A DNA stretch of 64,000 nt, taken from NCBI GenBank assembly GCA_004431415.1, contig QPMI01000267.1:20730-84729 (forward strand), in the 5' to 3' direction. The DNA is from Cyanophora paradoxa CCMP329. Taxonomy: Eukaryota; Plantae; Glaucophyta. Each line of letters starts with the position of its first letter. Position 1 is the first letter of the stretch. The notes under the pieces were generated by a model. The model was given only the letters and a program-made list of their open reading frames with translations, searched no databases and was not told the DNA's origin. The translations under genes were made by a program, and so were the position numbers. Below, piece by piece: positions 9,342 to 57,449 of this stretch.

Positions 9342-10397
9342 ATGGTCGACTATCTTGAGAAGTTCGCCGTCACCCACAAGCTCGAGGTTGCCGTGAACGA
9401 GCTCCTCCGCTCCAGGCCCCAGGACCCGTGCGTCGCCCGAATCCGCCGCTTCCTGGGCCGCGCTGGCTGAGCTGGAGGCCAGGTTCGAGTTTCTCGCCCA
9501 CCGCATCGCCAAGATGTCCGTCGAGCACCCTCAGGGCGTGCGCGCTGCCACTCCAGCGCTGATTCCAGGATGACCGCCTGACGTGCCACGAGCAGATCAT
9601 CCCGCAGCTCAGCGACTCCGCGAAGAAGTCGCTCGGCGCTGAGATGGTGCGCGCGTGGCCAGCGACCGGCGCCGCTCGCGATCAACCATCTCGCAGGCGC
9701 ACATGTTCGGCTACCGCATGTCGATGGAGGAGGGCTTCGGTGGGCTCCTCGCCCTTCTATTCATTCCTTTCGCTGACTGTCTCGCAGCCAAGGCGCGCGC
9801 CGGCGGCAAGCAGGACGAGAAGCCGGCGAAGGAGGACAAGAAGCCAGAGCCCGCCAAGCCGGCTCCGGCCCCGGCCCCGGCCGCCGCTGATGACGACGAC
9901 GTTGACCTCTTCGGTGCGGCGCCTCGCGCGGCCCATGGGGCGCGCGTCGTGACCTGTGGGGCGCAGCGGACGAGACCCCCGAGGAGGAGGCGGCGCGCGA
10001 GGCGCGGCTGAAGGCGATCGCGGACGCGAACAAGAAGGTGAAGAAGGCGGTCATCGCCAAGTCCTCCCTCCTCATCGACGTCAAGCCGTGGGACGACACC
10101 ACCGGTGCGCCCCGCCTACTTCGCGTCGCTCCGCCTCGCCTCTTCGCGCCGCCCGCTCACGCGCGCCGGCGCGCTGCAGACATGAAGAAGCTGGAGGAGT
10201 GCGTGCGGAGCATCCAGATGGACGGGCTCGTGTGGGGCCAGAGCAAGCTGGTGCCGGTCGCGTTCGGCGTGAAGAAGCTGCAGATCAACGCGGTCATCGA
10301 GGACGACAAGGTCTCGACCGACGAGCTCGAGGAGCAGATCGTTGCCTTCGAGGACTACGTCCAGTCCTTCGACATCGCCGCCTTCAACAAGATCTAG
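9342..10397 (+). CDS. EEF1B: Translation elongation factor 1B beta/delta-type GEF subunit, 7 exons, with N-terminal RIIa/Dpy-30-like motif
   Basis: Spliced by hand over six GT-AG introns: DDDDVDLF(A)[10 protein letters not shown] acidic region, [36 protein letters not shown]...KKLQI...DDKVS, ending FDIAAFNKI*, the hallmark EF1B GEF domain. Confidence 0.95.
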
Positions 10398-24700: not shown

Positions 24701-27700
24701 TGGCTCCGCGTGCGCTCCACCTGCGCGGCCGCTCAGGGCGGGGGAGGAGGGCGGGGGGCGGGGCGGGGCGGGCCTCGGCGAGGAGGGAGGCGCGGACGCG
24801 GGACTCGGCGGTGGCGAGCGACTCGCGGGCCGAGGCGAGCTCCCCGTTCAGCCGCTCCAGCTCCGCCGTCAGCCGCTGCACGTCCCGCGGCGGCGCAGGC
24901 CCCTGGCTCGCCCCCGCCCCGCTCCCCGCGGCCCCGCCACCGGCGCCCCCGCCGCTGCCGCTCGCCTCGAGGACCGCGATGCGGTCGTGCAGACGGAGGA
25001 GGAGTCCTTCGGCGTCCCGCAGCTTCGTCTGCGCCGCCTCCGCCTCCGCCCGCCAATGGCGCACCTCCGCCTCCTTGGCGCCGGCCTGGGCGGCGGCGAC
25101 GGCGCGGCCCTCCTCCATGTCGGCCGTCCGCTTCCGCACCTCTTCCAGCTCCGCCGCCGTCTTGGCCAGCTCCGCCCGCAGCTGCTCGACGAGCTCGGCG
25201 CTCGGGGGCTCGCCCGGGGTGACGCCCTGGGCGGGCCCGAGGAGCTTCTGCTTGCGCTTCTTGCGCTCCGCCTCGAGGAGCTTCTCGGTGTCCTTGAGCT
25301 TGTTGCGGAGGAAGGCGATGGTGGAGTCGCGGCCGTCGGCGCCGGGCGCCGCCGGCGCGGGGGCCCCCGGGCCGCTGCTGCCGCGCAGCGAGGCCTCGTG
25401 GGAGCGCTCCTCGCTGGAGAGCTTCTCCCGTAGGTACGCGATCAGGGCGTCCCGCGTGTCCTCCGCCGGGCCCAGGCTCTCCCCGCCCCCCAGCCCCGCC
25501 AGAGGGCCCGGGCCCCCCAGGTACCCCGCCAGCTCCTGGCCCTGCCCTCCCGAGCCGGAGCCGGCGCCGCGGCCCGGCGCCCCCGCCGAAGACGAGGAGC
25601 CGGCGCGGGGGTTGCTGGAGGCACCACCGGGTCCGGGGAGCCAGACTGTGGCCGACGTCGAGAGCGCCACGCTCCCGCGGGCGGCGGCGGCGGCGGCGGC
25701 GGCGCCCCCGGTGGGGACGGGGAGGGAGAGGGAGGTGGCGGCCTGCGTCAGGGCGATGCCGCGGGCGGCGGCGCTGCCGGCGGGGGCGGCGCCAATGCCG
25801 CCGGGGGCCGGGAGGGAGATGGTGGCCGAGGGCGGCGCGAGCGGGATCGCCCGCGCCGCCGACGGCCTTGATGAGGCCGGCACGGGGAGGACGATCGGCC
25901 CGCCCACGGGCCCCGTGCTCGACGGGGCGCCCAGGATGAGCCCGCCCGTCGTGCCCCCCCCGGGGGCCCCCGAGAGCGACCCGGGGTCCCCGGGGGCCGC
26001 CAAGGAGATGGAGCCTCCGGAGACGGGGAGCGGGAAGGAGGAGCCCGGGGCGGTGGCGACGCCGCGGCCCCCGGCGGACGGCGGAAGGGCGAAGCCGCCG
26101 GCGCCGCGACCCACCGACAGGGGGACCACACCCCGACCGTACCCGTACCCGGGGCCGGGCGCCGGGCTCGTCGCGAACGGGAACGGCCCCGCGCCGCGGG
26201 CCGCTCCCGAGAGGGGCACAGCGCCCGGAAGGGGCACAGGGAACCGAACGGGTACGGCGCCGGGGACAGGCCGGACGGGGACGGCACCCGGAATCGGGAA
26301 CCCGCGTCCGCCGACGGGCACGGCGCCTGGCTTGGGGGCGGCGTTCTTGCCTCCCTTGGACGCCGCCTTGGCGGCCTTCCCCGAGCTCTTGCCCTCGGAA
26401 GCCTGCGGCGCGCCGGGGTTAGGCGGCAGGCGCAGGGCCGCCCGGCGCGCGGCGCACCGCGCCCTCCTTGCGCTTCTTCTTGCCCTCCTTCTGGTTGGGG
26501 CGACGGAGCTTGTCGCGGTTGGCGCGCGAGGCGAGCGGGGCCTTCCGCCGCTTCTTGGCGCCGCCTCCGGCCTCCGAGGAGCTGGAGCTGGAGCTGCTCG
26601 CCCCCTCTTCCTCGGCGGAGGAGTAGGAGGAGGCGGACGAGGAGGAGTCTGCCTTCTTCTTCTTCGACTTGCGCCGGTTCCTGGCCGCCGGCTTGGACGC
26701 GCTCGCCCCGTCGCCCGTCTTCTGGCGCTTGGCGGCAGGCTTGGAGGGCGTCGACGTGCGCTTGGACCGCAACCTCGACGACGGGCCCGCCGGCGACTTG
26801 CCGGCAGCGCCGCCCTCCTCTCCCCCGCCTGCCCCCTCCTTCTCTGCATCCTTGCCTCCGCCCGCTTCAGCACCCGTCCCGTCGCCGATCGGACCCGTAC
26901 CGCCCGCTGCTGCGACCTCTCCATCCTCCGAAGCGTTCGGGACTTCCCGGATGTCAACACTCGGCTGCTCCGCCGCCGCTGATTCCGTGGCGCCCGAAGC
27001 TGCGCTCTCCTCCATCGCATCGGCGCCCTCGGCAGCGGCATCGCCCGCTGCACCAGCCTCCTCCGCTGCCACAGGCTCTGCCGACGCCTTCGCTGATTCG
27101 CGCGCGTCCGTTGTCTCCTCCGTCGCATCGGCGCTCTCAGCTGCGGCATCGTCGGCGGCATCGCCCGCTGCACCAGCCTCCTCCGCTGCCGCAGGCTCTG
27201 CCGACACCCCCGCTGATTCGCGCGCGTCCGTTGCCTCCTCCATCGCATCGGCGCCCTCAGCTGCGGCATCGTCGGCGGCATCGCCCGCTGCACCAGCCTC
27301 CTCCGCTGCCGCAGGCTCTGCCGACGCCTCCGCTGATTCGCGCGCGTCCGTTGCCTCCTCCATCGCATCGGCGCCCTCAGCTGCGGCATCGTCGGCGGCA
27401 TCGCCCGCTGCACCAACCTCCTCCGCTGCCGCAGGCTCTGCCGACGCCCCCGCTGATTCGCGCGCGTCCGTTGCCTCCTCCATCGCATCGGCGCCCTCAG
27501 CTGCGGCATCGTCGGCGGCATCGCCCGCTGCACCAACCTCCTCCGCTGCCGCAGGCTCTGCCGACGCCCCCGCTGATTCGCGCGCGTCCGTTGTCTCCTC
27601 CATCGCATCGGCGCCCTCAGCTGCGGCATCGTCGGCGGCATCGCCCGCTGCACCAGCCTCCTCCGCTGCCGCAGGCTCTGCCGACGTCTCCGCTGATTCG

Positions 27701-28394
27701 CGCGCGTCCGTTGCCTCCTCCGTCGCATCGGCGCCCTCAGCTGCGGCATCGTCGGCGGCATCGCCCGCTGCACCAGCCTCCTCCGCTGCCGCAAGCTCTG
27801 CCGACGCCCCCGCTGATTCGCGCGCGTCCGTTGTCTCCTCCACTGCATCGGCGTCTGGAACTGCATCGCCGGCGGGATCGATCACTGCACCGCTTTCCTG
27901 CGCGGCCGCAGGCTGCAGCGGACCTTCTGCAGATGCTTTCACATCCATCTCATCCGTTTCTTCCATCGCGGCGGTGTCTTCTGTGTCGTCGGCACCTTCA
28001 GTCGGATCGTCGACTGCGGTGGTCGCTGTGGTCTCCTCCGCCGCTGCCGGGGCAGGTTCCGGAGCCTCGGAGCTTTGCATATCGATCGCATCGCCCGGAA
28101 CGTGTGCTGCCTGTTGAGCTGCTTCGGTTAGACTGCCGGCAGGCCCAGCGTCCGTGTCAGCGTCCAAGGGCTTCGGGGCATCCTGGGACGATCGTAAGAA
28201 GGCAAGATGGCGAGAAAAAGCTTCGAGAAAACGCTGACAGGAGCGGGGTCCGAGTCGGAAAGCTGCCCGGGCTCCTTATCGAGGATTCCGTCAGAAGTTA
28301 GCGGATCTGCGAAGACGCTCGTTTTCAACGTCCGACTTTGAAATCTCTGATGCTATGCACTCGTACCTCCAGGCTGCTGGCCCTCCTCCGCCAT
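21743..28394 (-). CDS. Very long low-complexity protein: acidic 40-aa repeats, Lys/Ser basic patch, PGAVP repeats, coiled coil, Q/S/Y/A-rich C-terminus
   Basis: Start ATG 28394 (MAEEGQQPG|DPLTSDGILDKE...|DAPKPLDADT) joined through GT-AG introns to the 582-aa, 2250-aa and 773-aa open frames; ends YGSTWGS*. Confidence 0.75.
27013..27851 (-). repeat. 120-bp coding minisatellite (~7 copies) encoding EEATDARESAGASAEPAAAEEAGAAGDAADDAAAEGADAM-like repeats
   Basis: Sequence lines repeat at 120-bp period (27121, 27241, 27361, 27481, 27601, 27721) with few substitutions and no frame change. Confidence 0.95.
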
Positions 28395-43300: not shown

Positions 43301-45547
43301 TGGCGCCGGCCGCGACAAGGAGCGCGAGCCGGGCCGCCGCCCATCGCCTTCGTCGCGCTGCCGCCCCTCGAGTCGCGCGAGGAGCGCCTGCGCGTGCTCG
43401 CCGCCCTCGCGGGGCGCCTCCCGAGCGGCCCCCGAGGCCTCCTCGCCCGCCTCGCCCTCGAGCCCGCGCCGCCTCCCCGCCTTCCTCCGCCTCCTCCTCC
43501 AGCGCGCCCTCGCCGCCGGCCTCCCGACGCCCTCGGCGCCCAGCTCGAGGCCTGCTCCTCCCCGTCGCCGCGGGGGGCGCCAGCCCGCGGCCCCGCCCCG
43601 CCTCCCCGCTCCCCGTCGCCCCGGGCTCCTCCCTGCACGCGCTCGTCTCGCTGGACGGGCGGCGGGCGGCGCTGGCGCTGGACCTGCCGCTGGGCGAGCT
43701 CGCGGAGAAGTACCTCGCCTGGGGCGACCGGGAGCGCTCCTCGGCCGCCTCGGCCGCCCGCCCCGCCGAGGCCTACTTCCGCTTCATCGAGGGGGCCACG
43801 CGCGAGCGCTCCCCGCTCCGCGCCCTCGAGTGCGCCCGCCTCCTCCTCCTCCCCTACGGCCGCGCCCAGGGCGGCGGCTGGTCGGACGCCCCCGCCCTCG
43901 GCTCCGGGGACGCCGCGGCGCTGCGGCGGGCGGACCTCGCGGCGCTGACGGGCCGCGGGAGGCGGCCGAGCGGCGCGCCGCGTGGCTCTACGACGCCGGC
44001 CTGCCCCCGGTGCGCCCCGCCCCGCCTCCGGGGCCGGCGCGGTTTCCGGGGGCGCGCGCCGACGGGGCGGGCGGGCGGCAGGTGCTGTTGGACGCCCTCC
44101 GCGCGCAGTTGCGCCACATGTTCGCCCCGGCGCCGGCCCCGCCGAGCGCCCCGCGGGGGCGCCGCCGCCCTCTCCGGGGCACTCGGGCCCGCGCGCCCGT
44201 GCCGCATGGGCCGCTGGTGGCGCTGGTGCAGACGGTGCTGGCGATGCTCTACGTCGAGGAGGCCGCCGCGCTCCGCCGGCGGGCGCGCGGGGCGGGGGCG
44301 CTCGCGGAGCCCCTCTCCCGCCTCGCCTCGCTGCTCGCGCGCTTCAAGCCCTGGAGCGGCCTCGGCCTCGCCACCCCTCCTCGAGGCCGACGTGCCTCCC
44401 CCGCCCGCCCGCCCGCCCCGCCCGAGCGTCGCCAACGCGCCGCCCAGGTCCGCGTCCTCCTCGACTCTTCTGACGGCGGTCCGACCCCTCACCTCGCCCC
44501 CCGCCGCCCCTCCGCCGCTGAGGGGACCGCAGGGGACGCCGACGGGCGGGGCCGGCGGGAGGCGGCGGCAGAGGCCGCGCGGGGCCGCCTGCAGATCGCC
44601 CTCGCCGGTCACGTGCGCTCGCCTTAGGCGCCGGGCTCGGCCGGCCCGGCGCGGGCTCACTCGCGTGCGGGGCGGCAGGCGGCGGAGCTGGCGCCCTCGC
44701 TGGTGGGCGGGGAGTCGCTCTCGGCGCTGGCGGAGGCGACGGTGGCGTCGGCGCTGGACCGGGCGGCGCGCGAGCTCGGCTCCTCGAAGCCGGCCGAGGT
44801 GCTCGTCTTCGCCGTCGCCCTCTCCAGCGCCGGGCCCTCCGAGGCCGACCTCCTCGCCCTCACCGACTGGACCCGCGACGAGTGGCGCCGCGTCTGCGAG
44901 GCCCGCCCCCGCCCCGCCGCCCCGCCCCCGCCCCCGCCCCCGCCTCACGCCCCTCTCAGCTCATGGGCCCCGTGCTCGAGCGCTCGGGGGGGCGGGTCTC
45001 CTTCACGGATGCGCGCGTGGCGCAAGCGGCCCTCGACGCGATCATGGACGGCGACGGGACGCCGGCCGGGCGGCACGGCGCCGCCCAGCGCCGCGTGGAG
45101 TGGCACAAGTTCGCGGTGCGCAGCGGATACGCGTCGGAGGTGCGGCGGGCGGAGGAGGAGAGCTACCACAAGGCGTGGCTGAAGCGGCCCGTGGGGTGCG
45201 CCTGCGGGCGGTGCGACGAGTCGCGCATCCAGGTGCTCGGGGCGCTCCCCAAGCGGGCCAGCGCGGCGCGGCACGTGCCGCCGGACGGCCTCGTGGGGAA
45301 GGCGGCGCGCTTCGCCCCGAACCTCGCCCGGCCCCTCGTCCTCCCCCGCGAACAGCTCGTGCGCCTCGGCGCAAGCCATCCCTCGCTCTTGCAGATCGGT
45401 GACGGCGCGCAGGAGGACCGGATCGGGCGGCTGTACAGGACGGGGACGGCGCGGATGAGGCGGGAGGTGGAGATGCGGGCGGAGGAGAAGCAGGCGGCGG
45501 CGGCGCGCGCCGCCGCCAACAGGGCTTACGTCGAGCAGCTCCGCGCC
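40397..45547 (+). CDS. DUF4062 + P-loop NTPase protein (TEP1/NPHP3/TTC41-like architecture), 5' part; last exon interrupted by the Polinton-like element
   Basis: VRVYLCCDFDEFREEREAL..., GVSFDWVDMRWG, RCLDEVERAAPFFVGLLGNRYG (DUF4062 pattern); a Walker A-like VVVKG.AGAGKTTLAARW and a Walker B-like IVLVLDGA. Confidence 0.8.
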
Positions 45548-45974
45548 AAAAAATGAGAGAGGACCTGATTCTGTGGCCCACCCCTCTTCACCACCCTCAC
45601 CTCTCCGAACCCACCCCAACCCACCCAATCCAGCGTCTTCCCAGCCATCACTCTCGCCAACCCTTCCGCTACGTCTACCGCCCTTCTCTCCCTCTGGTCT
45701 ACCTCCCCTTCCATCCAGCAACCACTAGGTACTATCTAACGTCTACTCCAATCGATCTTGCAAAAGATATAGCAGTGATTTGAGACGGGCCCCAACGCGA
45801 CGGTCTGCAGAGATAGCTTAATCAGCAGCTAGGCGTTAATACTGTGTTCTTCCTATCTAAATAGCGGAGAGGTTTCCAGGTTCTAGCTAGACGATAAAAC
45901 TATATAATCGAAGCTGATTGCATATGCGAGTTTAGGTTCTAGTTAGTCAATAATACTGTGTGGATGATAGCGCC
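45548..45974 (+). repeat. Left terminal inverted repeat (427 bp)
   Basis: Reverse complement of 56164-56592; I see only two homopolymer-length differences and one substitution. Confidence 0.97.
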
Positions 45975-45981
45975 AGTAGCA

Positions 45982-46375
45982 ATGTTGAAGATTTGGACAG
46001 GAAGTCCTAAAAACGAAAAGATCGAGAGATGTTGAAGATTTGGACAGAAAGTATAGTAATGTAGACGAGCTTCTATGCGCTGGCATAAAGTATAGTAATG
46101 TAGACGAGCTTCTATGCGCTGGCATAAAAGTATAGTAATGTAGACGAGCTTCTATGCGCTGGCATAAAAGTATAGTAATGTAGACGAGCTTCTATGCGCT
46201 GGCATAAAAGTGATAGTGCGCTGATAGTGCGCTGATAGTGCGCTGATAGTGCGCTGATAGCTAGCCGGAGACAAGCCGAGACAAGCCCGAGACAAGCCCT
46301 GTGCCAAGCCGGATCCGGAGACCAAGCCCGAGCCAAGCCGTCAAGCCAATCGTTACAGGCATCGTTACAGGCATT
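45982..46375. repeat. Subterminal tandem repeat cluster: 19-mer x2, 40/41-mer x4, 11-mer GTGCGCTGATA x4, ~10-mer GACAAGCC x~5, 12-mer x2
   Basis: AAAGTATAGTAATGTAGACGAGCTTCTATGCGCTGGCATA repeated 46048-46210, followed by the shorter arrays. Confidence 0.93.
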
Positions 46376-47029
46376 CACTCCAGCGATGCCGGAGCCTAGC
46401 TTAGTGAAGCCGCTCAGCATTGGCTTGTACTCGATCGCCGGCCCGACAGGATCAGCACTGCTAGAGGCGATGCGCAGGATCGATGCGTTAGCTACAGGCA
46501 GCTCGCTAGCATTCTCATCGACCTCGGGGATCGCAACAATCGTCTTAGCAGGAACAGCAGATGCAGGAGGGGCAACCTTCTTATCGACCTTTGTCTTCGT
46601 GATCGGTTCATTTAAAATCTTGTTCTCCATCTTAGTCTCAGCCGCGATGCCAGCTATAAGATCACTAGCTCGCTTCTTTGAAACTGTTTTAAGACCGGTC
46701 ACAGTTTTAATGAAATACCTGCTACGATTAGCCGTCTCTGAGATGTACAGCGGCCCATCGTCGGTATTCCTTAGCTTGCTAGTCTTGGTCTTCTTAGTCC
46801 GAGAATTCGGGATCTTATCAAGAATAGCGTTCTCATCGGCGGTAAGAGCATAGTCGTTGGATGCACCCTCACCGCCACCAGCGCGACGGGCTAGCGGGTA
46901 AGCATCAGTATCACCACTCAAGAACTCGATGTGATTCTTCTTAGTAGGGCTGGAAGTGCGCAGCCAAGACTGCATGTCTGTCGACTTCTTTCGCGGAGTG
47001 CGCAGCCGAGACTGCTTGTCTGTCGACAT
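46112..47029 (-). CDS. Hypothetical basic (Lys/Arg/Ser/Thr-rich) protein of the element; 3' end uncertain
   Basis: 305-aa ORF starting 4 nt after the mCP stop, with AAAGATG start context; duplicated N-terminal STD(K/M)QS(R/W)LRT; runs into the subterminal repeats. Confidence 0.6.
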   Translation of the reverse strand: MSTDKQSRLRTPRKKSTDMQSWLRTSSPTKKNHIEFLSGDTDAYPLARRAGGGEGASNDYALTADENAILDKIPNSRTKKTKTSKLRNTDDGPLYISETANRSRYFIKTVTGLKTVSKKRASDLIAGIAAETKMENKILNEPITKTKVDKKVAPPASAVPAKTIVAIPEVDENASELPVANASILRIASSSADPVGPAIEYKPMLSGFTKLGSGIAGVNACNDACNDWLDGLARAWSPDPAWHRACLGLVSACLRLAISALSAHYQRTISALSLLCQRIEARLHYYTFMPAHRSSSTLLYFYASA

Positions 47030-47032
47030 CTT

Positions 47033-47930
47033 TTAACTAGTAGTGGGAAAAAACTTATGCGAACGATCTGTCGAAGGGACGTACTCGCTGGCTGCATTCT
47101 TGATTGCGGATTTAGCAGCAGCAGACGTGTAAGAGACATCCTCGATATCGAACTCTAGCACGAACGAGAACTCCGTGTTTGTGACAGCGTCTGTTCCATT
47201 ATGATAGCGCAGCGATATGTCAAGTTCAGACAGCTCAGCGTTTCGATCGAAGCCTGTGACGGGAACACGATCCTCAGATGTGAACTTGATGAGCTCCCCG
47301 AATTTTGAGTCGATGTGAATCTTTGCGATCGAGCCCGTTGTATAGGGGTTAAGTGTCAAGATCGAGCCTTTGATCTGCTGAATGTACAGGAACAAATACG
47401 TGTGATAAAGTAGATCAACTGGCATATCGCTGAACAGCTCGTACGAATATTGTACGCCATCGATTGTCTCAGGTGTGTCAAGCTCACTGGAAAGGTCACT
47501 GAGAGTCTTCGCAAACCGAGCAGGTTCGCTAGTTCGGCCGATGTGAAGCTCAAAATAAAGTCCGCTTCACACAGGAACCTAAGCCGCATTGAGATCTCTT
47601 CGAACTGAACGACGAACTTGCGCTGATAAGTAGTTCCACCGTAACTATACTGCTGGGTTTTAAGAAGCGTGCTTAGATAGTTTGCAAGGGAGGTTGGCGT
47701 ATAGACTCCGGGCTTGAAAGTGTTGGCACGTGTTTTCTCAACGCCAGAGGGATCAAGGGTGCCGGTGATAATTGCGGCTTGTGTGGACAGGTTGAACATG
47801 TTATGAAACAGTTCTAGCGAATCAACTCGCACCGACTTTACATTAACGAGGGGCCTTGGGAGATTGATCTTGAAATTCGAGGACGTGCCTTCGAACCGGT
47901 CCTAGAATCGACATTTACGCGGAGCTTCAT
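47033..47930 (-). CDS. Minor capsid protein (penton, single jelly-roll), frameshifted in this assembly
   Basis: N-terminus MKLRVNVDSR(D)RFEGTSSNFKINLPRPLVNVKSVRV and C-terminus LSELDISLRYHNG...TEFSFVLEF match the PLV/NCLDV penton pattern. Confidence 0.8.
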
Positions 47931-47974
47931 CTTTACAACAATATGCATGAAAATTTTCTGGTCTATAATAGCAA

Positions 47975-49200
47975 ATGGCGCAAGCAGGAACAACTCTAAA
48001 GGAGCTCCTCACTACCAAAGGTTCAAGCGAGCTTTATCTATCCCGGGTCTCACTGTCGGTGTCAGCCCCAAGTTCAAGCCTTTCCTTGAAACGATCCGTC
48101 CGCGAGGCAACTCGTACGGCTTCGCGCAGACTGCCGCTTTCGACCTTCCGCGCAAGCAACTTCTAAACGGTGTCTCGCTATACTTTAAGGTCAGCGTCGC
48201 TGGCGGAGCGGCCGCCTCAGTGCTGCCGAATGGCGCAGGTGCATTTATTGAAAACGTGCGCTTTGTTCATGGATCCTTCAAGATGGTGATCCCAGGAGAC
48301 TGGCTTACTGTGAACGCGCTCATCGATAATAGCGTTGCATCCGCCCAGGCTTTTGCTAGCAGCTACGGCTTTGGAAAGGACGCTGCTCTTGAGATTCTCG
48401 ATGCCAGTCGCGAGTATGTGCTAAAGATCCCTCCCAGCTCTGGGACAATTCATACTTCCCGCTCCTCGCACTGGCTGACATGCCCACCGTCGAGATTGAC
48501 TTCCGTTCGGCTTCGGTGGTTGGAACTGTCGCTAGTGCTGTTGCAACTCTAACGGATTGTGCCCTGGTTTGCCAGTTCGTGAATATCCCTAGCGAAGAGG
48601 CTGAGTCTATGCTTAAATCTGCAAACGAGAGCGGTGGTATTCGAATTCCTTTCACCGAGATTATTTCAAAGCGCTCGAGGCAGTTAAAGACTGACGACGC
48701 GGGAATGCAGTCGAAATCTCCCTTGCCAACGTCAGCGGCCTTGTGCACGCGATCCTGATGACAGTGCGTAATGCGAATCACCTGGGCACTCGCAATCACA
48801 ATTCATTTGCTGGCAACGGAAATGCGCTGAAAATCGATTCGTTTGAGATCATGCACAACAACCGAACTCTCGACATCAGCAATAAGCCAATCTCTGGGTT
48901 TGTATCATCGTGCTATCACATTCCAACTCAATACCGCGGTGCAACACTGGCAATTCAGCTCTTGGCTTCGAGGACGGAAATGTCTATGGGATTGTGCTTT
49001 CGAAATCTGGCAAAGACTCACTGCATAACGCTGTCCTCGGCTACACAGACTTCTTTAATTCCAGCAGCAGCTACTGCTCGCTAACTGTGACCGGCTGCAC
49101 AAACGCAGCGCCAGCAGTTGTTGACTTCCACGTCCTGCGCCACAATGTTCTCGTAATTAACTCGTATCAAATGTCAACTCTAAAGGTAAGTAACTTCTAG
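47975..49200 (+). CDS. Major capsid protein (double jelly-roll), frameshifted in this assembly
   Basis: About 400 aa across the frames: YGFAQTAAFDLPR..LLNGVSLYFKV, GAFIENVRF, YFPLLAL..PTVEIDFRS, IDSFEIMHN, C-terminal RHNVLVI; lies between penton and ATPase. Confidence 0.82.
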
Positions 49201-49890
49201 ATGGATATCAAACTGTTTGATCCTACAGAAATAAAACTGCCTAAACGGTTCTTGTTTGTCGGTCCAACAAACTCGGCAAGAGCACCTACGTAAAACACGT
49301 GCTAAATGCTGTAGCGCCACAGTTAGACGATATTTACGTCTTCAGTACGACCGCATTTACTGGGCAATGGAATGATACAACACGACCAAGTAATATCCAG
49401 GAAGAATGGATCCAGTTTTGGTTGAAGCGCTGCTAGAACGACAAAAAGAAAGAAGACGCAAAAATGATGATCGCAAGATTGCAATTGTTTTAGACGATTT
49501 ACTTGACAATGACCTAGTAAATGTCCACAGTGACAGACTCATGCAAAAGCTATTTACTTCTGGCCGTCATTACAACACCACCCTTTTCATAACGACTCAA
49601 CGTCTTTGTGGCATCAGTCCGACGATTCGCGGAACTGTGAGTACGTTTGCTTTTCGTCGATTTTGAGCAATGTTAAAGAGTTCAACACTTGCTTCGACGA
49701 ATATAATGCCGGAGCGAGTCGAGCAAATCTAATGCGTCTTTTCGTTGAATGGGTCATTCGTTTCAGGTTTTGATATATGAAGGCGTGAGCGCGGACCGCG
49801 TTTATGCTGTTGACAAAGCCTCTGGAACGACTTCGGCTCTATTGCGCTTTGTGCGCGTAAAAAGCAGCGCGATCGAAAGTCGGTAGCCAG
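49201..49890 (+). CDS. A32-like (FtsK/HerA) genome-packaging ATPase, frameshifted; 3' end approximate
   Basis: FLFVGPTNS(G)KST Walker A, IAIVLDDL Walker B, LFTSGRHYN and ITTQ...ISPTIR.N motifs. Confidence 0.92.
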
Positions 49891-50089
49891 GACTGTTTGA
49901 GCAACCAACTTGTATATTCTGGACGTGATGTCGCGATCCACAGGTAGGAGGCTCCTTTAAAATACCAAAGCTGATGCAGTGACTTGGGGTGAGTTGACTC
50001 CTGCCTGGCCAACAGTCTTCTAGATTTAACTCTTCCTCTGCCGTTTCGAGTTCGAGTTCCATTAAAAAGATAAAGGGGTGTTATTCCCT

Positions 50090-50661
50090 TCATTCAAACC
50101 TGTGGAAGTTCAGCCGCAGAAACGGCTTGTCCTCTTCGCTGGTATGTTCTATAACGTAAGCATCACGAGCTTGAGCTGCTGCTTCGGCGGTTGCAAAGTA
50201 GCCGATGTTCTTTAGACGGCCATTGATCCTGTAATTTGCTTTCCATTTACAAAGTCGCTCATAGAAGCTGACGCCAATGAATCCTGATGTGTTTGTGAGC
50301 CGACGGTTTTGGTTCAACATCTGCTGACGCTTTGTCGCCAAACGTAGATTCTCGCGACGATTATCGAGTTTGTTATTATTAATGTGATCTACAGTAAGGT
50401 CATTCTCAAGTCTCCAACAATGAACGTATGCAAATACATATTCTTTCCATTGATCTTGCTCGAGGTATAACCATTGTTCAAACACCATCGTTTCTCCAGC
50501 ACTCGATCAGCATCATCCTGTGATACAAAAGCGTAGGCGACGATTACTTTGCGCCGATTGCGAATACCGCCTAACGGAATCAAAGCAGCTCCTCTGGAAC
50601 ATCTGGAACGATGACCTCCATCTGCGCAGCGAGCTGCTTGTCTGCGACTTTTTCGTTACAT
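50090..50661 (-). CDS. HNH endonuclease with C-terminal AP2 DNA-binding domain, frameshifted; start approximate
   Basis: MYLHTFI...VDHINNNKLDNRRENLR (HNH) followed by NTSGFIGVSF...KWKA...IGYFATAEAAAQARD (AP2). Confidence 0.92.
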
Positions 50662-50827
50662 TTACAGTTTGCATTATCTTTAAGACTTAAAAGTCGCGCT
50701 AATTTGTCTTAAAAGGATTTATGTCTCTTATTATTGAGAGACAAACCGAACAATGACTTCTGCAATTACTGCGGATTGCGTTGCGGTTAAACGTGGCGTG
50801 GGCGACCCCTAAGGTTCGTCTTTTAAC

Positions 50828-51094
50828 AATGGAGCCTTATCAGCCGAAGAAGAAGGGGCCTAAACGATGGAGGTCACCCCGGAGATTTTAGCAGAGCGAC
50901 GCAGAAAGAATGCTGAACGCAATCGCAAACTGCGCCACACGAACGAAACATACCGTTTGAAACAGCTTGCCATCACAGCGAAGTATCGAGCTGAGAATCC
51001 TGATAGGATCCGGGAGTACCACAGGAATGCTATTGCGCGTAGATGCCTCGCGAAGAGCGGAGCTTCTGTAGAGCTCGAGGTGATGCAGCTTTAG
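50828..51094 (+). CDS. Small basic hypothetical protein
   Basis: RRRKNAERNRK...KYRAENPDRIREYHR charged helical pattern common in small viral ORFs; ATG at 50828 (needs one indel) or 50867. Confidence 0.5.
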
Positions 51095-51979
51095 CACCTG
51101 CTCGTAGCTTTGGCTCCCCTGCAATCTCAAGCTTCTTGAGCTCTCGATACTGCCGGCTTTGACCGCTGTATTTTTTTGTTTCGATCAAACCCTCACGTCT
51201 CAATCGTCTCTGCTGTCGCATTTGCACTTCTTCTTTTTCGATTCGTGTTTGAGGTGCAAGCTCACGCGGTTGACATATTTCCGATGGTTTAACACGTCTA
51301 GAAATTTCCACACCCTGTTTTGTAACGAGTCGAACACGGTTCTTGTCTGCGCCAGCAACTATGTACGTCTCCTTGCTTGGCTTTGTGGTTCCCTTCGCAA
51401 AAACGCTTGGCTTCGGCTCCAGGACTTGCACTTCGGTCCCTGTGCGCGGTATGTTCGAATTGTCTCGTTCAATATCGTTCTGTCGCTGTCTAACTTGATG
51501 CAGCTGCTCGGCTACCTGTGTATTTTCCCGCATCCACTTTGGTGAGTGCTCCCGCCGAAAGAGCTGTGGGCTGTTTCATTGTACGCCTTGACAATTGCCG
51601 GCAAACGTGAGAGGAAATGCGGGGAGCCACGAGCTTCTGTATCAGTCTGAATCAGTGCTCGCAATGTCCTCGCGAACCTGTCGATAATTCCCAGCTTGGA
51701 GCCTTTTGAAATGTGATCATCCTTAGCCACATCAGTGTGCATTTTCAACGAGTTCTCTTCAGCCATTTCCCGAATTGCTGCTGTGTTGAAGCCGTTGTCT
51801 CCTGAAAAGCCCCATATTCCAGGTAGCTGCTCGATCATTTTTGGAAGCTGCTTAAAAGTCTCGAGCTTACGGACCACAGCGAAACGGGTTGCAATCTCGA
51901 CCGCTGCGAACAGGCGAAATCTCCCAATGAACAGCACGTCAATTTGCCACGCACCGGGTGGCGCAGTAATCTGGTACAT
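51030..51979 (-). CDS. Retroviral-like (rve) integrase, one frameshift near 51540
   Basis: WQIDVLF...AVEIATRF (D1), FSGDNG (D2), KLGIIDRFARTL (third acidic residue), YNETAHSS, and a C-terminal GTEVQV...FAKG segment. Confidence 0.9.
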
Positions 51980-51988
51980 CTTTGTAAA

Positions 51989-54900
51989 TCAGGCGCGATT
52001 TTTATAATGTCCAATCGCTCGGGTGTTGATCCCGTCAGTCTCGAGGAAGCGTTTGGTATCAAGGGATGTAGAGCCTGACGCGAGGTTCGTTGTAAATAAA
52101 TCTCATGTAGTTTCGAGCGGAAACCGAGAATTCCTTTGATGTCATACGATTGCTTTTCTCCCTCTTTAGGGCAGACGCACCGGAAGAATACATCCTTGTG
52201 AGTCTGTTGTAGTACGTCTTTTGAATACCCTTGCATACCTGCTTGTCCGTGGAATCTTCACGCGAATAATAGTAAGATTTCGGCCGGTTAGCGATCCACT
52301 CTGTCATTTGCAGACCATGGAGCTCATCCTTGAATAATCCCGGAGTTTTCCCCATCGATCGTAGAGCTCGAACCTCATCGGCTGTCATGCCATCGAAGAA
52401 TCGATGTGTCTCTGGGTAGTCGCTAACATCCAGCTCATGCTTGATTGAGCGTAAATCAGCATAGATATCTTTGGTGCGAACCTCGATGATGAGACTGTCA
52501 GTATCCGTACCTAATAGTGTCAGCCGCTGGCCCCAAAGCAGCTTGAGCACCTGGTAGTAAAAGCGGTACATGTGCAGCTTGGAAAGTTCGAGGATGACGA
52601 ACCCGCAGTAGATAGGTTTGTTCAGATTGTACTCACTTTTGCGCTTGGAAACGAATACAAGGTTCTCTTCGTACATCACCACCTGCTTCAACCGATTTGG
52701 TTCGCTGTTGATCTTCACCAGACGGTCTCCCGAAGTCACAAGCTCTGAAAAGCAGTGCTTTCTCACGTTCTCCATTGTTTTGCCAAAGACACTGTTGTTC
52801 ATCAACTTGTAAAGGTCCTTCTGGTATGTGAACTGCGATTCTTTACGTTTTTGAGTATTGAGATCTATGAAACGCCCTAGCCATGCGCTTTGTTCGTACG
52901 ATAGGATCCGATGGATGTTGGTTACTATCATTCCCAGTGACGTATAGAGCTGAAGCAAGCGTCCATCAACAACATAATTCTTTTTTGGAAGCAGATTTGG
53001 AACGAGCTTTGGAGTTCGTTCAACTGAGGTAAGCTTCTCGTCGTTAATCATATCCTGTTGTCGCTTTGATAGGTGTTCCTTGGACACACACATCCGTTCA
53101 GGGGCCAGCGGATAGTCTGAGAACTCGTCATGGAGATGCTCAGGCATGTACATATCGACTTCGAGAGCATAGCCACGAGCTCCATCCGCGTCAAGGCTTG
53201 CAACGTACTGCATTACATCAACGTCTTGATCTAGTTTATCCCAGCGGAAATCTCCTGTGGGTAGCTTGCGCTTCATTGCGACGCCGTACAAGTTGTTTGC
53301 ATCGAGGTACATGAGCCACGATTCCTTGTGTGTTCGGTAGTAGTTAGAAATGCATGTAGACTGTGAGACTGTAGGCTCAACAGCGTGGGTGTACTTGTTG
53401 AACTTTATGCTCAAATATTTGTTCTCAGCTCGTGCGTAGCGTTTTGAGATCATTGAGATTCCGCCCCTGATCCCGGATTCTATAAATCTGTGCATATCCT
53501 GCTGCCCTCGTGAAAGAGCTCGAGCTTCACTCCAGTGTGCTTAAGTGCTGCCTGCCAAGCAAATCCGGCGATGACATAAAATAGCTAGGATCTAGGCCAT
53601 ACGTTTCAATACACGTATCACGATAGTTTTCAAACACGTCAGCTAGTAACGCGATATCTGTCATCATATACTCCATTGTATAGCCTGATAGCGTTCTGCA
53701 GCCGAGCTCTCGCCAAACAGCCTTCGCATGTGCGTACTCATCTTTCGTGCATTTCTTCTGTTTAAGCTGATTTTTGAAATAACGACGTGCAGGCAGTTTA
53801 GACTCCTGAAAGCGAGCCCAGCTCGTCATGTAGTCATAAGGGTAAATCCCTTTGCTAGTCATCAGCTTGAACGAGTCTCGTCCAGATACAGCGAGCGCGT
53901 GATCTTCTTCTTCTCCGCGGGCAGAGCCTTTGCAAGGTCGTCCAAGCTCGCATTCAAGTGCTGAGCCGAGTCCCGTAGAACGTAAATTCCATACTTGAAC
54001 TGCGAAATTCGCTCGCTATTCTGGAAGACCTGATCGAATTTTATCGAAAGGAGACTCTGCGGGCGGAGCCGGCGTTCGAGCCCTTCTTCGCCTTCTTTTT
54101 CTGCTCTGGGGTCATCTCACGCCCACCGTACTTGCTTTCAAACTCGCTTTCGACATGCGCTTGAAACTCCTTCCAAGCTGCTAAACGACGGTTATAGCCA
54201 GATGCTAGAGCACGTACGAGCAGGTGGAAGTCAAATCCTCGACCGTTGTGCCAGAATAATGGAACAGCAGCTGATTCGCGCGGCGTCGATTGCAAGCTCT
54301 GCAGGCAGCCCCGAAATATCGGCCAGATTCGTGGCAGTGATCACGGTGCTTGTCTTTCGCATCCTTGAACGTGTTCTTGCACATGTAGCACTCGGTCGTC
54401 GTTTGAAAACGCTGCTCCTCTTCCTGAGTAATCTGGATTGGTGCAGTCTCTCGCAAAAGCTCTCGGAATTGTGGTTCATTTCGTCCAACCATTGCACGAA
54501 CTTCTCAGTGCAGTCCTCGCTCTCCGAACCCATGTATTTGAAACAAAACTGTTCACCTTTTGAAGATACAACCAGACAGCCGACTGAAGCAATCACATGC
54601 ACACCTTTCTTTTCGGTCTTTCCACTAATGCAGGGAATTGGCATTGTAATCGTCTCTGAATCAGCATATCCGACCAGACGTTGCCGGATTGAGTACTCAA
54701 AGTTAATAAACTTCTGGATATGTGCTCCTTTCTCCGGCAGAACATCTCTTGCGTGTTCATCCCGATCAAGGCAACGGTCATATTTCAGATGATTTTCAAA
54801 TGCTTGATCTGAGCTAAAACCGACCTGGCAGGCTAAGCAATAGTGCTTTGCATTTGATTCGTTCTTTCGGAACAGTCGTGAGACGCTCTTAATCCAGAGG

Positions 54901-56034
54901 TAATGCCCGACATCGTTTCCCTCCCAGCCGGCACATACAGTATTGGGATTGCGTCTCTCGCAGCACTGATATGGATTGGTATGATATCCTGCTTATCTAG
55001 AGCAGTTGTATAAACGCAGAGCTTGACGTTATTTGCTTGCTCGAATTTGGTGAACATCCTCGAGTCAAGCGGGGTCGGATATGTAAGCATTGAGCAGTCC
55101 AGCGATGTCTCGTGCTGGCGGTAGTTCCCTGCATGCCGAGAATCAACACCTTCGCCCAATGGATTGCGAGCAGCAAGGACTGCGTATTTAAAGCACTCGT
55201 TGTTCGGTGCATTTATATTGATAAGCGCGTGCTTGTCTGAGAGCCACTTTGGCAGTACAAAGCCTCGGCCACGGCCACCAATCCTGCGGAAATAGCGCAC
55301 AGTTTTAAAGACCAGATACACCCACGTGTCAAATACTGAGGAATCCCTGCTTTTCTCTGCCGAGATCATGTCTAATTCTTCGAGCTGTGAACGCAAGGCG
55401 CCTCAATGCTTGTCCCTGGCTCGATGCGATCGAAACGACGATGTTCAATAACGATAGCGATCGTAGAATCTGTCTCTGGCTTTCTGTAGACACCCAATCC
55501 AGAGATTTGTAGTGCAATGCCATTCTTACCGCCTCTGCAAGATTTACCTGGGCGCTTACGAATGATATAGCATTCTGTTTGAACTGCTCAGAATTCTCGA
55601 AGCGAGCTTGCATTGATGTTACGCGGCCAGAACCGCGAGGCAATTGGTATTTCCACTCCGCATATCGCCGTCAAGCGCTGTTGTAGTATTTCCGTCATTG
55701 ATTTGAACATCATTTCCACCGTCATCCTCAGGCAGCTCGGCAAAGCCACGGACGATCTCTGCCTGCACCTCTGCGATCGCCAGCTCTAGTCGACGACCTG
55801 ACACAGGACGCGCTGGCCTAGGAAGTCTTGCAAGTTCGTTCAAAAGTGAAGCGTACTTTTCCAAAGTTGCAAACCGTGTTCTCGACCCTTGTGCTGAAAT
55901 TCTAATCAATTTATTTTGAAAGCTCCATGTATGACGCGTCGATTATACAATGAAATCGCGAGCGCTTCGATCTGGTCTTTGATTCTGGCCAACCGGAAGC
56001 GCCGAGTCGCTGCATTATTTTGGGTAACGTCCAT
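51989..56034 (-). CDS. Protein-primed family B DNA polymerase (pPolB) with N-terminal terminal-protein region and Zn/EndoVII-like insert; multiple frameshifts
   Basis: NECFKYAV, GYADSET (ExoI), DHCH.SGRYFGAACRACN, HNGRGFDFH (ExoII), KGIYPYDY, YLDANNLYG, KLMNNSVFGKTMEN, GTDTDS, GLFKDE, C-terminal DTKR...DGINTRAIGHY. Confidence 0.96.
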
Positions 56035-56163
56035 TGGAAGTATATATCACAATTTTTTTGCTTGTTCCAAACGCAACTTCACATAGCAATATTGGAAAGG
56101 GATCTCTTTAAGACAAAATAAGAGAAACCTCAATTGCGGTGACCCTTTGGTGATTCAAAGACC

Positions 56164-56592
56164 GGCGCTATCATCCACACAGTATTATTGACTAACTAGA
56201 ACCTAAACTCGCATATGCAATCAGCTTCGATTATATAGTTTTATCGTCTAGCTAGAACCTGGAAACCTCTCCGCTATTTAGATAGGAAGAACACAGTATT
56301 AACGCCTAGCTGCTGATTAAGCTATCTCTGCAGACCGTCGCGTTGGGGGCCCGTCTCAAATCACTGCTATATCTTTTGCAAGATCGATTGGAGTAGACGT
56401 TAGATACTACCTAGTGGTTGCTGGATGGAAGGGGAGGTAGACCAGAGGGAGAGAAGGGCGGTAGACGTAGCGGAAGGGTTGGCGAGAGTGATGGCTGGGA
56501 AGACGCTGGATTGGGTGGGTTGGGGTGGGTTCGGAGAGGTGAGGGTGGTGAAGAGGGGTGGGCCACAGAATCAGGTCCTCTCTCATTTTTTT
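56164..56592 (-). repeat. Right terminal inverted repeat (429 bp)
   Basis: Reverse complement of 45548-45974; followed by TSD CGCGCC. Confidence 0.97.
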
Positions 56593-57018
56593 CGCGCCCG
56601 CATCCGCGGCGACAAGGCCCGCGAGGCCGCCGAGCGAGCAGCCCGTGCCCGTGCTGCCGCCGCCGCCCAGGAGACCCAAGCCGAGGCGGCCGCCGGCGAA
56701 ACTGAAGGTGCTCCCGCGCACCCCGGCTCTGGAGCCTCGGCGGCGCCGGCGCCGCCATCGCAGTCCAGCCCGTCTGTGGGGGCCGGCTTGCTCTCAACGA
56801 AGCCCGGGTGCCCCCCAACCACCCCTTCCGGGCCCGCAAGCTCGGTCAGGCGTGCATCCTCCGCGGCCGCCGCCCCTGTTGGAGACCCCAAGGCCGCCCT
56901 GCAGTCGCAACCGCAACCCGGACGCAGCGATGAAGTGCGGCACTTGCACCCTCACCGGCCTCTCCACGGCGACGTAGTGTCACCCGTGGCGCCGGCCGTT
57001 CCTGTCACGTCCCACTGA
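56593..57018 (+). CDS. Displaced 3' end (~140 codons) of the DUF4062/NTPase gene
   Basis: Removing the element and one TSD joins YVEQLRA to RIRGDKAREAAERAARAR...VTSH* in frame. Confidence 0.8.
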   Translation, partial: RARIRGDKAREAAERAARARAAAAAQETQAEAAAGETEGAPAHPGSGASAAPAPPSQSSPSVGAGLLSTKPGCPPTTPSGPASSVRRASSAAAAPVGDPKAALQSQPQPGRSDEVRHLHPHRPLHGDVVSPVAPAVPVTSH

Positions 57019-57449
57019 CATTTAGATGGATACCATGCCGGCCGTGTGCCAATTTTATACATAAAGCAGAGCTGCAGCGCGCTAGCGCCAGCGCTAGCGC
57101 TAGCTGCAGGCTGCAGCTGCAACCGGCCGCCCTTGGCGAACGAAGTCTTCCCCCCCCCCCCACCTGCGAAGGCAGGTGGGGTATGCCAGCCCATCAGATG
57201 AAGTTCGTGCAGATGAAGCCGGTCACCTCACTCCGACCACGCGGCGCCATGTGAGTACGGTCAGTCGAACCGAGCTTCTGGCGGTCCAGTTCGCAGTCGC
57301 CTGCGTCCCATCTAGATCTTGATCAACAAGCGTGCGCGTTCGGGCTCGCATACGGCGTCGACGACACTCTGCCTATTAAGCTAGTTTCGCCCCAGCAACT
57401 CTTCGGGCCCGCTGCAGCGCCCTGCGCAGCGTCTGCAGTGCCCTGCACC

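What the first reader, a model, noticed from the sequence alone, without database searches (positions are those of the whole stretch)
45548..56592. Compact, complete Polinton-like endogenous virus (11.0 kb) with both capsids, ATPase, pPolB, rve integrase and HNH-AP2 but no visible protease
Seen: TIRs, a 6-bp TSD and eight intronless genes. Known: canonical Polintons/Mavericks are usually 15-20 kb and carry an adenain-like cysteine protease, while many Polinton-like viruses lack it. This element pairs the Polinton replication/integration module with an MCP and penton whose motifs (FPLLAL..VEIDFRS, HNVLVI; VDSRDR, FSFVLEF) resemble the NCLDV/PLV type, and it has almost no unassigned space for a protease. 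Inference: a minimal, probably virion-forming lineage in a GC-rich protist, possibly undescribed.
Basis: partly seen in the sequence, partly recalled or inferred. Interest (0 to 1): 0.85.

Follow-up and report, generated by a model that had tools for sequence, protein, structure and literature searches.

The report
Compact polinton-like provirus in glaucophyte alga
An 11-kb, eight-gene virus genome with intact ends sits inside a host gene of what is likely the alga Cyanophora paradoxa; it likely copies itself and would build particles without a capsid-maturation protease, as most polinton-like viruses lack one, and a near-identical capsid gene was already catalogued, so it is an unusually small but otherwise ordinary member of a known group.

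Summary
Observation confirmed: 11,045 bp, 430-bp TIRs (99.3%), 6-bp TSD, eight intronless genes. The frameshifts are one-base homopolymer gaps that short-read contigs fill, so the family is intact. Depth of roughly 13-45x the flank suggests tens of copies. Corrections: the '305-aa ORF' is 221 aa and no protease. No Ulp1/adenain protease exists (profile E 0.39; controls 14 of 14 found), but pPolB keeps a vOTU cysteine-protease domain with both catalytic residues. The element is not undescribed at gene level. A near-identical major capsid protein from Cyanophora paradoxa is in Bellas 2023 Table S2 (HHpred: ascovirus MCP). Bulzu 2025 tallies 156 glaucophyte PLVs with 0 proteases, 49 pPolB and 85 rve, so protease absence is the norm. 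What remains: small size (published medians 19-29 kb), an unplaced capsid lineage with no environmental relative found, purifying selection on the capsid (10 of 11 listed changes synonymous), and insertion into a spliced host exon. Scan notes e1-10643325 and e1-10595630 describe sibling PLV families in this genome, possibly this one (unverified). New member of a known kind; interest 0.3.

The parts
45542..45547 (.). left copy of the 6-bp target-site duplication
45548..45977 (.). left terminal inverted repeat, 430 bp; begins with a run of six A; no terminal hairpin
   Evidence: fold z-score +1.16; the host-TIR junction is bridged by contigs of runs X2, X4, X5
46048..46374 (.). left subterminal tandem repeats (40 bp x4.2; 11 bp x4.5; 11-12 bp arrays)
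46365..47029 (-).
   Evidence: 1 Cys at residue 220, 2 His at 33 and 215; no Pfam hit; no usable Atlas hit
47055..47948 (-). minor capsid protein (penton), 298 aa, three one-base gaps
   Evidence: profile of 16 penton-like ORFs from IMG/VR loci scores it 24.3 bits, E 9.4e-7, against a best of 3.6 bits in 50 shuffles; a family member folds (pLDDT 77) like the mavirus penton (Foldseek E 2e-9)
47975..49200 (+). double jelly-roll major capsid protein, 409 aa, four one-base gaps
   Evidence: near-identical by eye to the Cyanophora paradoxa MCP in Bellas 2023 Table S2 row 23, HHpred 96.9% to an ascovirus MCP; Atlas features: 19 of 30 hits in clusters where 38% of members carry Capsid_N
49201..49900 (+). 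A32-like packaging ATPase, about 234 aa
   Evidence: Pfam Pox_A32 E 0.00095, below the curated cut-off; profile of 7 viral ATPases E 7.4e-19
50090..50674 (-). HNH-AP2 endonuclease; start codon uncertain
   Evidence: Pfam HNH_3 E 2e-10, AP2 E 7e-4
50753..51094 (+). 114-aa basic ORF with an AT-hook-like motif and a basic helix; likely DNA-binding
   Evidence: read through three listed gaps; weak likeness to small ORFs of L001 and L004, E 0.15-0.18; motif name recalled
51030..51979 (-). rve-type integrase, 316 aa, catalytic D-D-D; lacks the N-terminal ~35-75 aa of its homologues
   Evidence: Pfam rve E 0.02; homologues in IMG/VR loci E down to 3e-11; alignment; closest database proteins 32-33% identical
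51989..56034 (-). protein-primed family B polymerase, about 1,350 aa: N-terminal region (terminal protein inferred), vOTU, C2H2 finger, exonuclease with endonuclease VII insert, palm
   Evidence: 10 of 10 catalytic positions checked are conserved
54860..55260 (-). vOTU-like cysteine protease domain inside pPolB (Cys codon near 55195, His near 54905)
   Evidence: Cys and His shared by 38 of 40 aligned rows, the other 2 being gaps; domain defined in PMC11161782 section 8
56161..56592 (.). right terminal inverted repeat; ends in a run of seven T
56593..56598 (.). right copy of the target-site duplication
45413..45547 (+). interrupted host exon; the spliced host transcript runs into the left TIR, where the frame stops after two codons
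   Evidence: contigs of X21 and X24 splice 45358/45413 (GT..AG) and extend to 45602 and 45696; frame check
56593..57018 (+). rest of the interrupted host frame (141 codons, in frame if one TSD copy is kept); inferred, no empty-site contig seen
   Evidence: no Pfam hit

Best explanation
This is one copy, with near-identical TIRs and a 6-bp target duplication, of a likely multi-copy family of compact polinton-like viruses in what is likely Cyanophora paradoxa; it likely integrates with its own rve integrase, would be copied from its ends by its protein-primed polymerase, and is predicted to be packaged by its A32 ATPase into a double jelly-roll capsid that needs no maturation protease. Shown: ends, TSD, gene set, catalytic residues, error origin of the frameshifts, insertion into a spliced host exon. 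Inferred, by analogy: the vOTU domain cuts the terminal protein off the polymerase (PMC11161782); the terminal A run serves as a sliding-back start as in phi29 (PMC3480470); particles form only under some trigger, most likely a co-infecting giant virus (about even odds against autonomous nuclear replication). The HNH-AP2 gene is likely a passenger.
For: Ends and TSD; rve makes 6-bp TSDs (PMC12220804). All 16 listed indels are letters that short-read contigs add; 12 of 12 checked repeat the next base; 11 of the 13 pPolB breaks fall in listed contig gaps. Depth over the element 910-2264 against 46-49 on junction contigs in X5, and 68-130 against 5 in X2. vOTU, exonuclease and palm residues conserved. 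Five of seven internal gene junctions lie inside listed contigs of family-level depth, so the compact layout is not private to this copy. Of 35 scored codon changes among copies 25 are synonymous, 10 of 11 in the MCP (binomial p 8e-6 at 25% synonymous sites; 2e-4 at 35%). MCP, penton and ATPase identities. Protease-less PLVs with pPolB and rve are common.
Against: No particle, free linear DNA or terminal protein was observed; nothing here tests them. Depth is no copy number, and the 80% GC flank is likely under-sequenced, which inflates the ratio. The variant counts use only the 40 best-supported of 112 rows, come from contigs that may include sister families, and show past selection, not present activity. 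My own fold of an MCP piece failed (pLDDT 38.9), so the MCP fold rests on a published HHpred result and Atlas features. The terminal-protein domain is inferred from position only. Host identity rests on a by-eye match to a published table and on unreviewed scan notes; no host gene was placed in a tree.
Confidence: 0.75

Rival explanations
1. The family now spreads only as a self-synthesising transposon inside the genome, and the capsid module is a recent relic that no longer makes particles.
For: Only integrated copies are known; no relative in IMG/VR or JGI metagenomes by MCP or penton patterns; Bellas 2023 leaves this route open.
Against: MCP, penton and ATPase frames are open once read errors are set aside, and 10 of 11 listed MCP changes are synonymous. 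The pattern scans find only close relatives, so a blank is weak.
Confidence: 0.12
2. The 11-kb form is a deletion derivative of a larger virus, and the missing genes (fibre, protease or others) come from bigger siblings in the same genome.
For: Loose ends in DNA contigs at 46218, 46380, 49360, 49896-50105, 51391 and 52194 show that other copies diverge there; two junctions (ATPase/HNH, AT-hook/integrase) are not bridged in the listed records; no fibre gene is visible; scan notes describe mosaic siblings.
Against: Five of seven junctions are bridged at family depth, and depth is fairly even along all 11 kb; no glaucophyte PLV in Bulzu 2025 has a protease to lend.
Confidence: 0.1
3. The element is a decayed provirus whose roughly 40 frameshifts are real.
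For: Every gene is broken in the window.
Against: Short-read contigs of X1, X2, X4 and X5 add the missing letter at each listed place, at full depth in X4 for 12 of 12; TIRs differ at 3 of 431 columns. The contigs are family averages, so a private lesion in this copy is not excluded.
Confidence: 0.03

Closest known systems
Cyanophora paradoxa endogenous PLVs: Bellas et al. 2023, PMC10120064 (main text parts 1-4 of 7; supplement rows of Tables S1, S2, S4) and Bulzu et al. 2025, PMC12220804 (passages; Tables S3, S6)
   Same: Table S2 row 23 is near-identical to this MCP over about 370 shown residues (one substitution outside the breaks, by eye); row 24 is a sister type. 366 MCP hits in two clusters of 272 and 94. 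Of 156 glaucophyte PLVs: 0 proteases, 49 pPolB, 85 rve, 40 HNH_3, 139 Pox_A32.
   Different: Neither paper describes this family's genome, size, ends or gene order in the text I saw; which of the two clusters it is I did not determine; the Bellas supplement was cut when stored.
Polintons/Mavericks/adintoviruses (Polintoviricetes); PMC11161782 sections 8 and 10, PMC8502044 section 3.4
   Same: pPolB with vOTU plus rve, TIRs, 6-bp TSD, A32 ATPase, two capsid genes. Best polymerase hits are 39-45% identical and include a coral adintovirus PolB and Rhizophagus proteins. Starrett et al. already noted adintovirus-like proteins in Cyanophora contigs.
   Different: No Ulp1/adenain protease; MCP does not match a profile of 7 polinton-type MCPs; 11 kb against 15-20 kb; the polymerase is a long unplaced branch, at most 40% identical.
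Protease-less pPolB-rve PLVs in viral metagenomes (loci L001, L017; Aquintoviricetes-like by my reading)
   Same: pPolB, rve, A32, MCP, penton and an AT-hook ORF, with no protease detected in the fetched stretch; the ATPase groups with these two (SH-aLRT 96).
   Different: ATPase only 25% identical and on a long branch; no detectable MCP similarity; contigs of 17 kb with more genes.
Mavirus and EMALEs of Cafeteria burkhardae (PMC8547959, passages)
   Same: pPolB-rve elements of lower GC in a GC-rich flagellate, with TIRs and TSDs; 13 integration sites were in exons.
   Different: Virophage capsid and a protease in mavirus-like elements; mavirus pPolB lacks most of the exonuclease, which is intact here.
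NCLDV-related small viruses (Mriyaviricetes, Zoravirus, Zephyrvirus; bioRxiv 10.64898/2026.06.19.733378, parts 1-3 of 5) and OmPLV (PMC12721341, passages)
   Same: MCP whose best remote match is an NCLDV capsid; no protease.
   Different: No room for HUH, Mriya48 or VLTF genes; those groups are 15-45 kb; the preprint's main text does not mention Cyanophora, and its supplements were closed.

Membership tests
Polinton-like virus (catch-all, Polisuviricotina) | double jelly-roll MCP | tested here: met
   Atlas Capsid_N clusters; published HHpred of a near-identical protein; my own fold of a piece failed
Polinton-like virus (catch-all, Polisuviricotina) | single jelly-roll penton | tested here: met
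   profile E 9.4e-7; homologue folds like the mavirus penton
Polinton-like virus (catch-all, Polisuviricotina) | A32-like packaging ATPase | tested here: met
Polinton-like virus (catch-all, Polisuviricotina) | virion formation | not testable with these tools
   only indirect: open frames and synonymous bias
Polintoviricetes (canonical Polinton/Maverick) | pPolB with TP-vOTU-exonuclease-palm | tested here: met
   TP inferred from position only
Polintoviricetes (canonical Polinton/Maverick) | rve integrase, TIRs, 5-6-bp TSD | tested here: met
Polintoviricetes (canonical Polinton/Maverick) | Ulp1/adenain maturation protease | tested here: not met
   best E 0.39 in six frames and read-through proteins; leave-one-out controls 14 of 14 at E 3e-8 or better
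Polintoviricetes (canonical Polinton/Maverick) | Maverick-Polinton-type MCP | tested here: not met
   no score against a profile of 7 MCPs that includes a PF21738 member; shallow profile
Aquintoviricetes (TsV, PgVV, Dino groups) | MCP/ATPase clade membership | tested here: inconclusive
   ATPase joins L001/L017 on a long branch; MCP not matched by their 2-sequence profile; no named reference set was on hand
Virophages (Virophaviricetes) | virophage-type MCP and cysteine protease | tested here: not met
   no protease; published best MCP match is an ascovirus capsid; virophage MCP profile itself not run
Mriyaviricetes / NCLDV-related dwarf viruses | HUH endonuclease, Mriya48, VLTF2/3 | tested here: not met
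   all coding space assigned except the 221-aa and 114-aa ORFs, which match nothing in Pfam or the Atlas (221 aa) or look like a small basic DNA binder (114 aa); Mriya48 profile not available, so the 221-aa ORF is not excluded

The most novel reading that the evidence does not exclude
The 11-kb, eight-gene form is the normal, particle-forming genome of a glaucophyte-restricted virus lineage whose capsid module belongs to no named class: among the smallest self-replicating, self-integrating double jelly-roll viruses of eukaryotes, still jumping into genes of a cultured model alga, and inducible as what would be a first virus recovered from a glaucophyte (my one search, listed no such isolate).
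Probability: 0.25. Interest if true: 0.6.

Novelty: new member of a known kind. Interest (0 to 1): 0.3.

Why it matters
If the family makes particles, it is close to a minimal parts list for an integrating eukaryotic dsDNA virus (two capsid proteins, ATPase, polymerase, integrase, three small extras) in a cultured alga. That makes the open questions about endogenous PLVs directly testable: do they form virions, need a giant-virus helper, and cleave their terminal protein with vOTU? As a discovery it is modest, because the capsid gene and the protease-free gene content of glaucophyte PLVs are already in published tables.

Tried and rejected
No whole genome is held, so copies and their lengths could not be counted. 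No RNA holder listed for the element. Run X20 (organism B, share 0.06) lays 4 short pieces at depth 2-3; not used for habitat or expression. The X5 joint 45503-57102 has a 20-base side and misses the TSD, so I rejected it as an empty site. Searches for capsid-module relatives were blank or spurious. MCP query against 1.84 billion representatives: 1 hit, a repeat protein; that query was partly out of frame. MCP patterns in viral contigs: 0 of 14 stretches. In metagenomes: 1 of 220, a bacterial region without viral genes. Penton patterns: 0 of 32. ATPase piece: 0 of 62 candidates. pPolB single-protein patterns: 0 of 2. PDB sequence searches: nothing relevant. The ATPase alignment was too divergent to scan with. 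Single-sequence fold of an MCP piece: pLDDT 38.9, not searched further. Protease in the 305/221-aa ORF or any frame: rejected. Hairpin ends as in other elements of this genome: rejected. The pPolB tree is the quick search only (careful search unfinished) and places the element nowhere with support; it used 19 of 120 database hits and 20 of 26 loci. The 'mcpD' seed gathered proteins I could not confirm as capsids and was ignored. Paper searches without a description of this family. Rfam on 1-9000: no match.
Full report
Observation. The element spans 45548-56592 (11,045 bp, GC 48% against 77-80% in the flanks). The TIRs align over 431 columns at 99.3%. A 6-bp duplication, CGCGCC, abuts both ends. 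Contigs of three DNA runs (X2, X4, X5) cross the left host junction and one (X5) the right, so the insertion is not an assembly join.

Frameshifts. Every gene is broken in the window. Short-read contigs of runs X1, X2, X4 and X5 add one letter at each of the 16 places listed; 30 and 31 further rows were not shown. All 12 places checked repeat the next base, 11 of them in an existing run. The polymerase needs 13 breaks to read through, and 11 of them fall in listed contig gaps. This is the pattern of long-read errors; Bellas 2023 reports similar assembly artefacts in protist EVEs. Because contigs average the family, a private lesion in this copy is not excluded. I read genes through with X at the breaks, inside scripts only.

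Gene set. They fill 9,366 of 10,183 bp between the TIRs. The penton scores E 9.4e-7 against a profile of 16 ORFs from IMG/VR loci (best of 50 shuffles 3.6 bits against 24.3); one of those ORFs, folded with an alignment that held our two pieces, matches the mavirus penton. The ATPase scores E 7e-19 against 7 viral ATPases. An MCP piece draws 19 of 30 Atlas hits from clusters where 38% of members carry Capsid_N, behind three unnamed clusters and at a low recognition value; my single-sequence fold of that piece failed.

Protease. A profile of 14 adenain/Ulp1 proteases from the fetched loci recovers each left-out member (14 of 14, E 3e-8 or better) but finds nothing in the element (best E 0.39). 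The 221-aa ORF has one Cys, at its end. The polymerase, however, keeps the vOTU Cys and His shared by 38 of 40 aligned rows, together with all eight exonuclease and palm residues checked. Krupovic et al. (PMC11161782, sections 8 and 10) propose that this domain frees the terminal protein. So the element lacks a maturation protease but not every protease.

Copies and selection. Depth over the element is 910-2264 in X5 against 46-49 on junction contigs, and 68-130 against 5 in X2. The tool warns that depth is no copy number, and GC bias inflates the ratio, so 'tens of copies' is a likely reading only. Five of seven internal gene junctions lie inside listed contigs of family depth (46589-48451, 48769-49262, 50084-51004, 51349-52170); ATPase/HNH and AT-hook/integrase are not bridged among listed records, and loose ends show variants. 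Of the 40 variant rows shown (72 hidden), I scored 34: 25 synonymous, 9 not. Three rows form one non-synonymous MCP codon, added afterwards; three rows in uncertain frame were dropped. MCP is then 10 of 11 synonymous (p 8e-6 at 25%, 2e-4 at 35%), the orphan 6 of 11. This points to selection on the capsid among family members.

Host and site. The flanks have 52-77-nt GT-AG introns. Contigs of RNA-labelled runs from two studies splice 45358/45413 and run 55-149 bases into the left TIR, where the host frame stops after two codons. With one TSD copy the frame would continue for 141 codons; no empty-site contig was seen. Exonic insertion is known for EMALEs (13 sites; PMC8547959). Unreviewed scan notes named Cyanophora paradoxa. 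Independently, Bellas 2023 Table S2 row 23 lists a C. paradoxa MCP that matches ours over about 370 shown residues with one substitution outside the breaks (by eye), with HHpred 96.9% to an ascovirus MCP. The host is therefore likely C. paradoxa; no host gene was placed in a tree.

What is known. Bellas 2023 counts 366 MCP hits in two clusters in this species; by column position both fall among the unnamed clusters, which is my reading of the header row. The paper gives 14-40 kb as the usual size and says most non-virophage MCPs resemble NCLDV capsids. Bulzu 2025 Table S6: of 156 glaucophyte PLVs, 0 have a protease in any of nine profiles, 49 pPolB, 85 rve, 40 HNH_3, and only 2 are caught by their PLV MCP profile; of 1,850 alveolate elements, 634 have pPolB, 607 rve and 4 a protease. 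Their Table S3 gives PLV medians of 19-29 kb in 11 hosts, with minima under 11 kb in 4 of 11, completeness unknown. Bellas and Sommaruga 2026 call the Gosseviruses the only major PLV group with a core protease. Barth et al. 2026 describe frequent re-pairing of pPolB with capsid types and a stable pPolB-DDE link. Starrett 2021 noted adintovirus-like proteins in Cyanophora contigs. I found no genome-level account of this family; bioRxiv supplements were closed and the Bellas 2023 supplement was cut, and either may hold one.

Placement. The polymerase is of the polinton type (best hits 39-45% over the C-terminal piece) but a long unsupported branch in a quick tree of 40 rows. The integrase's closest proteins are 32-33% identical. 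The ATPase joins two protease-less IMG/VR elements at 25% identity. The MCP matches none of three shallow capsid profiles, and no relative turned up in representative, viral or metagenome searches. It works like a polinton but fails two polinton membership features; it meets the loose PLV definition; its class is open.

Mechanism. Shown: the parts, intact ends and TSD. Inferred: the rve integrase inserts the linear genome with a 6-bp stagger (PMC12220804). After release, pPolB primes on its own terminal protein at the terminal A/T run, which suits sliding-back as in phi29 (PMC3480470); the TIR has no hairpin. vOTU detaches the terminal protein, and the A32 ATPase fills an MCP-penton capsid without maturation cleavage. 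Whether a giant virus is needed is about even odds; nothing here tests it.

Verdict. A real, intact, unusually small member of the glaucophyte PLVs already tallied in print. New member of a known kind; interest 0.3. Boldest reading left open (probability 0.25): a minimal, particle-forming genome of an unnamed glaucophyte lineage, interest 0.6.

Noticed in passing
window 1-7546: Tandem array of a ~1.45-kb unit, about 99% identical, at least five copies, GC ~52% in an 80% GC region; no Rfam match.
   Followed up: partly
window 27023-27914: Tandem array with a 120-bp period, 84-94% identical between copies.
   Followed up: no
window 51976-51991: The integrase starts three codons after the pPolB stop in the same frame and lacks the N-terminal part of its homologues; the stop is unchanged in an X2 contig. 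Read-through to a polymerase-integrase fusion is possible but untested.
   Followed up: partly
window 45548-45556 and 56584-56592: The ends are A6 and T7 runs just outside TG..CA, unlike the 5'-AG ends I recall for canonical polintons; the run fits sliding-back priming. The one-base difference may be a read error.
   Followed up: partly
window 47849-49069 and 55582-56395: Depth rises over the MCP and over the 5' end of pPolB, and an X20 contig leaves the sequence at 55761. This fits scan note e1-10643325 of a sister family that shares the capsid and a polymerase leader, but I could not confirm that it is the same family.
   Followed up: partly
window, 60 bases upstream of the MCP and ATPase starts: TCTA lies 11-21 bases ahead of 2 of 8 start codons; the CroV/mavirus late-promoter link comes from scan note e1-10416723 and recall; too few to count.
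   Followed up: partly
window 9906-10397 (+): Host translation elongation factor 1-beta gene with short GT-AG introns.
   Followed up: no
L001, L017: IMG/VR contigs of 17 kb with pPolB, rve, A32 and capsid genes and no detected protease; 16 of the 26 loci do have one in the fetched stretch.
   Followed up: partly
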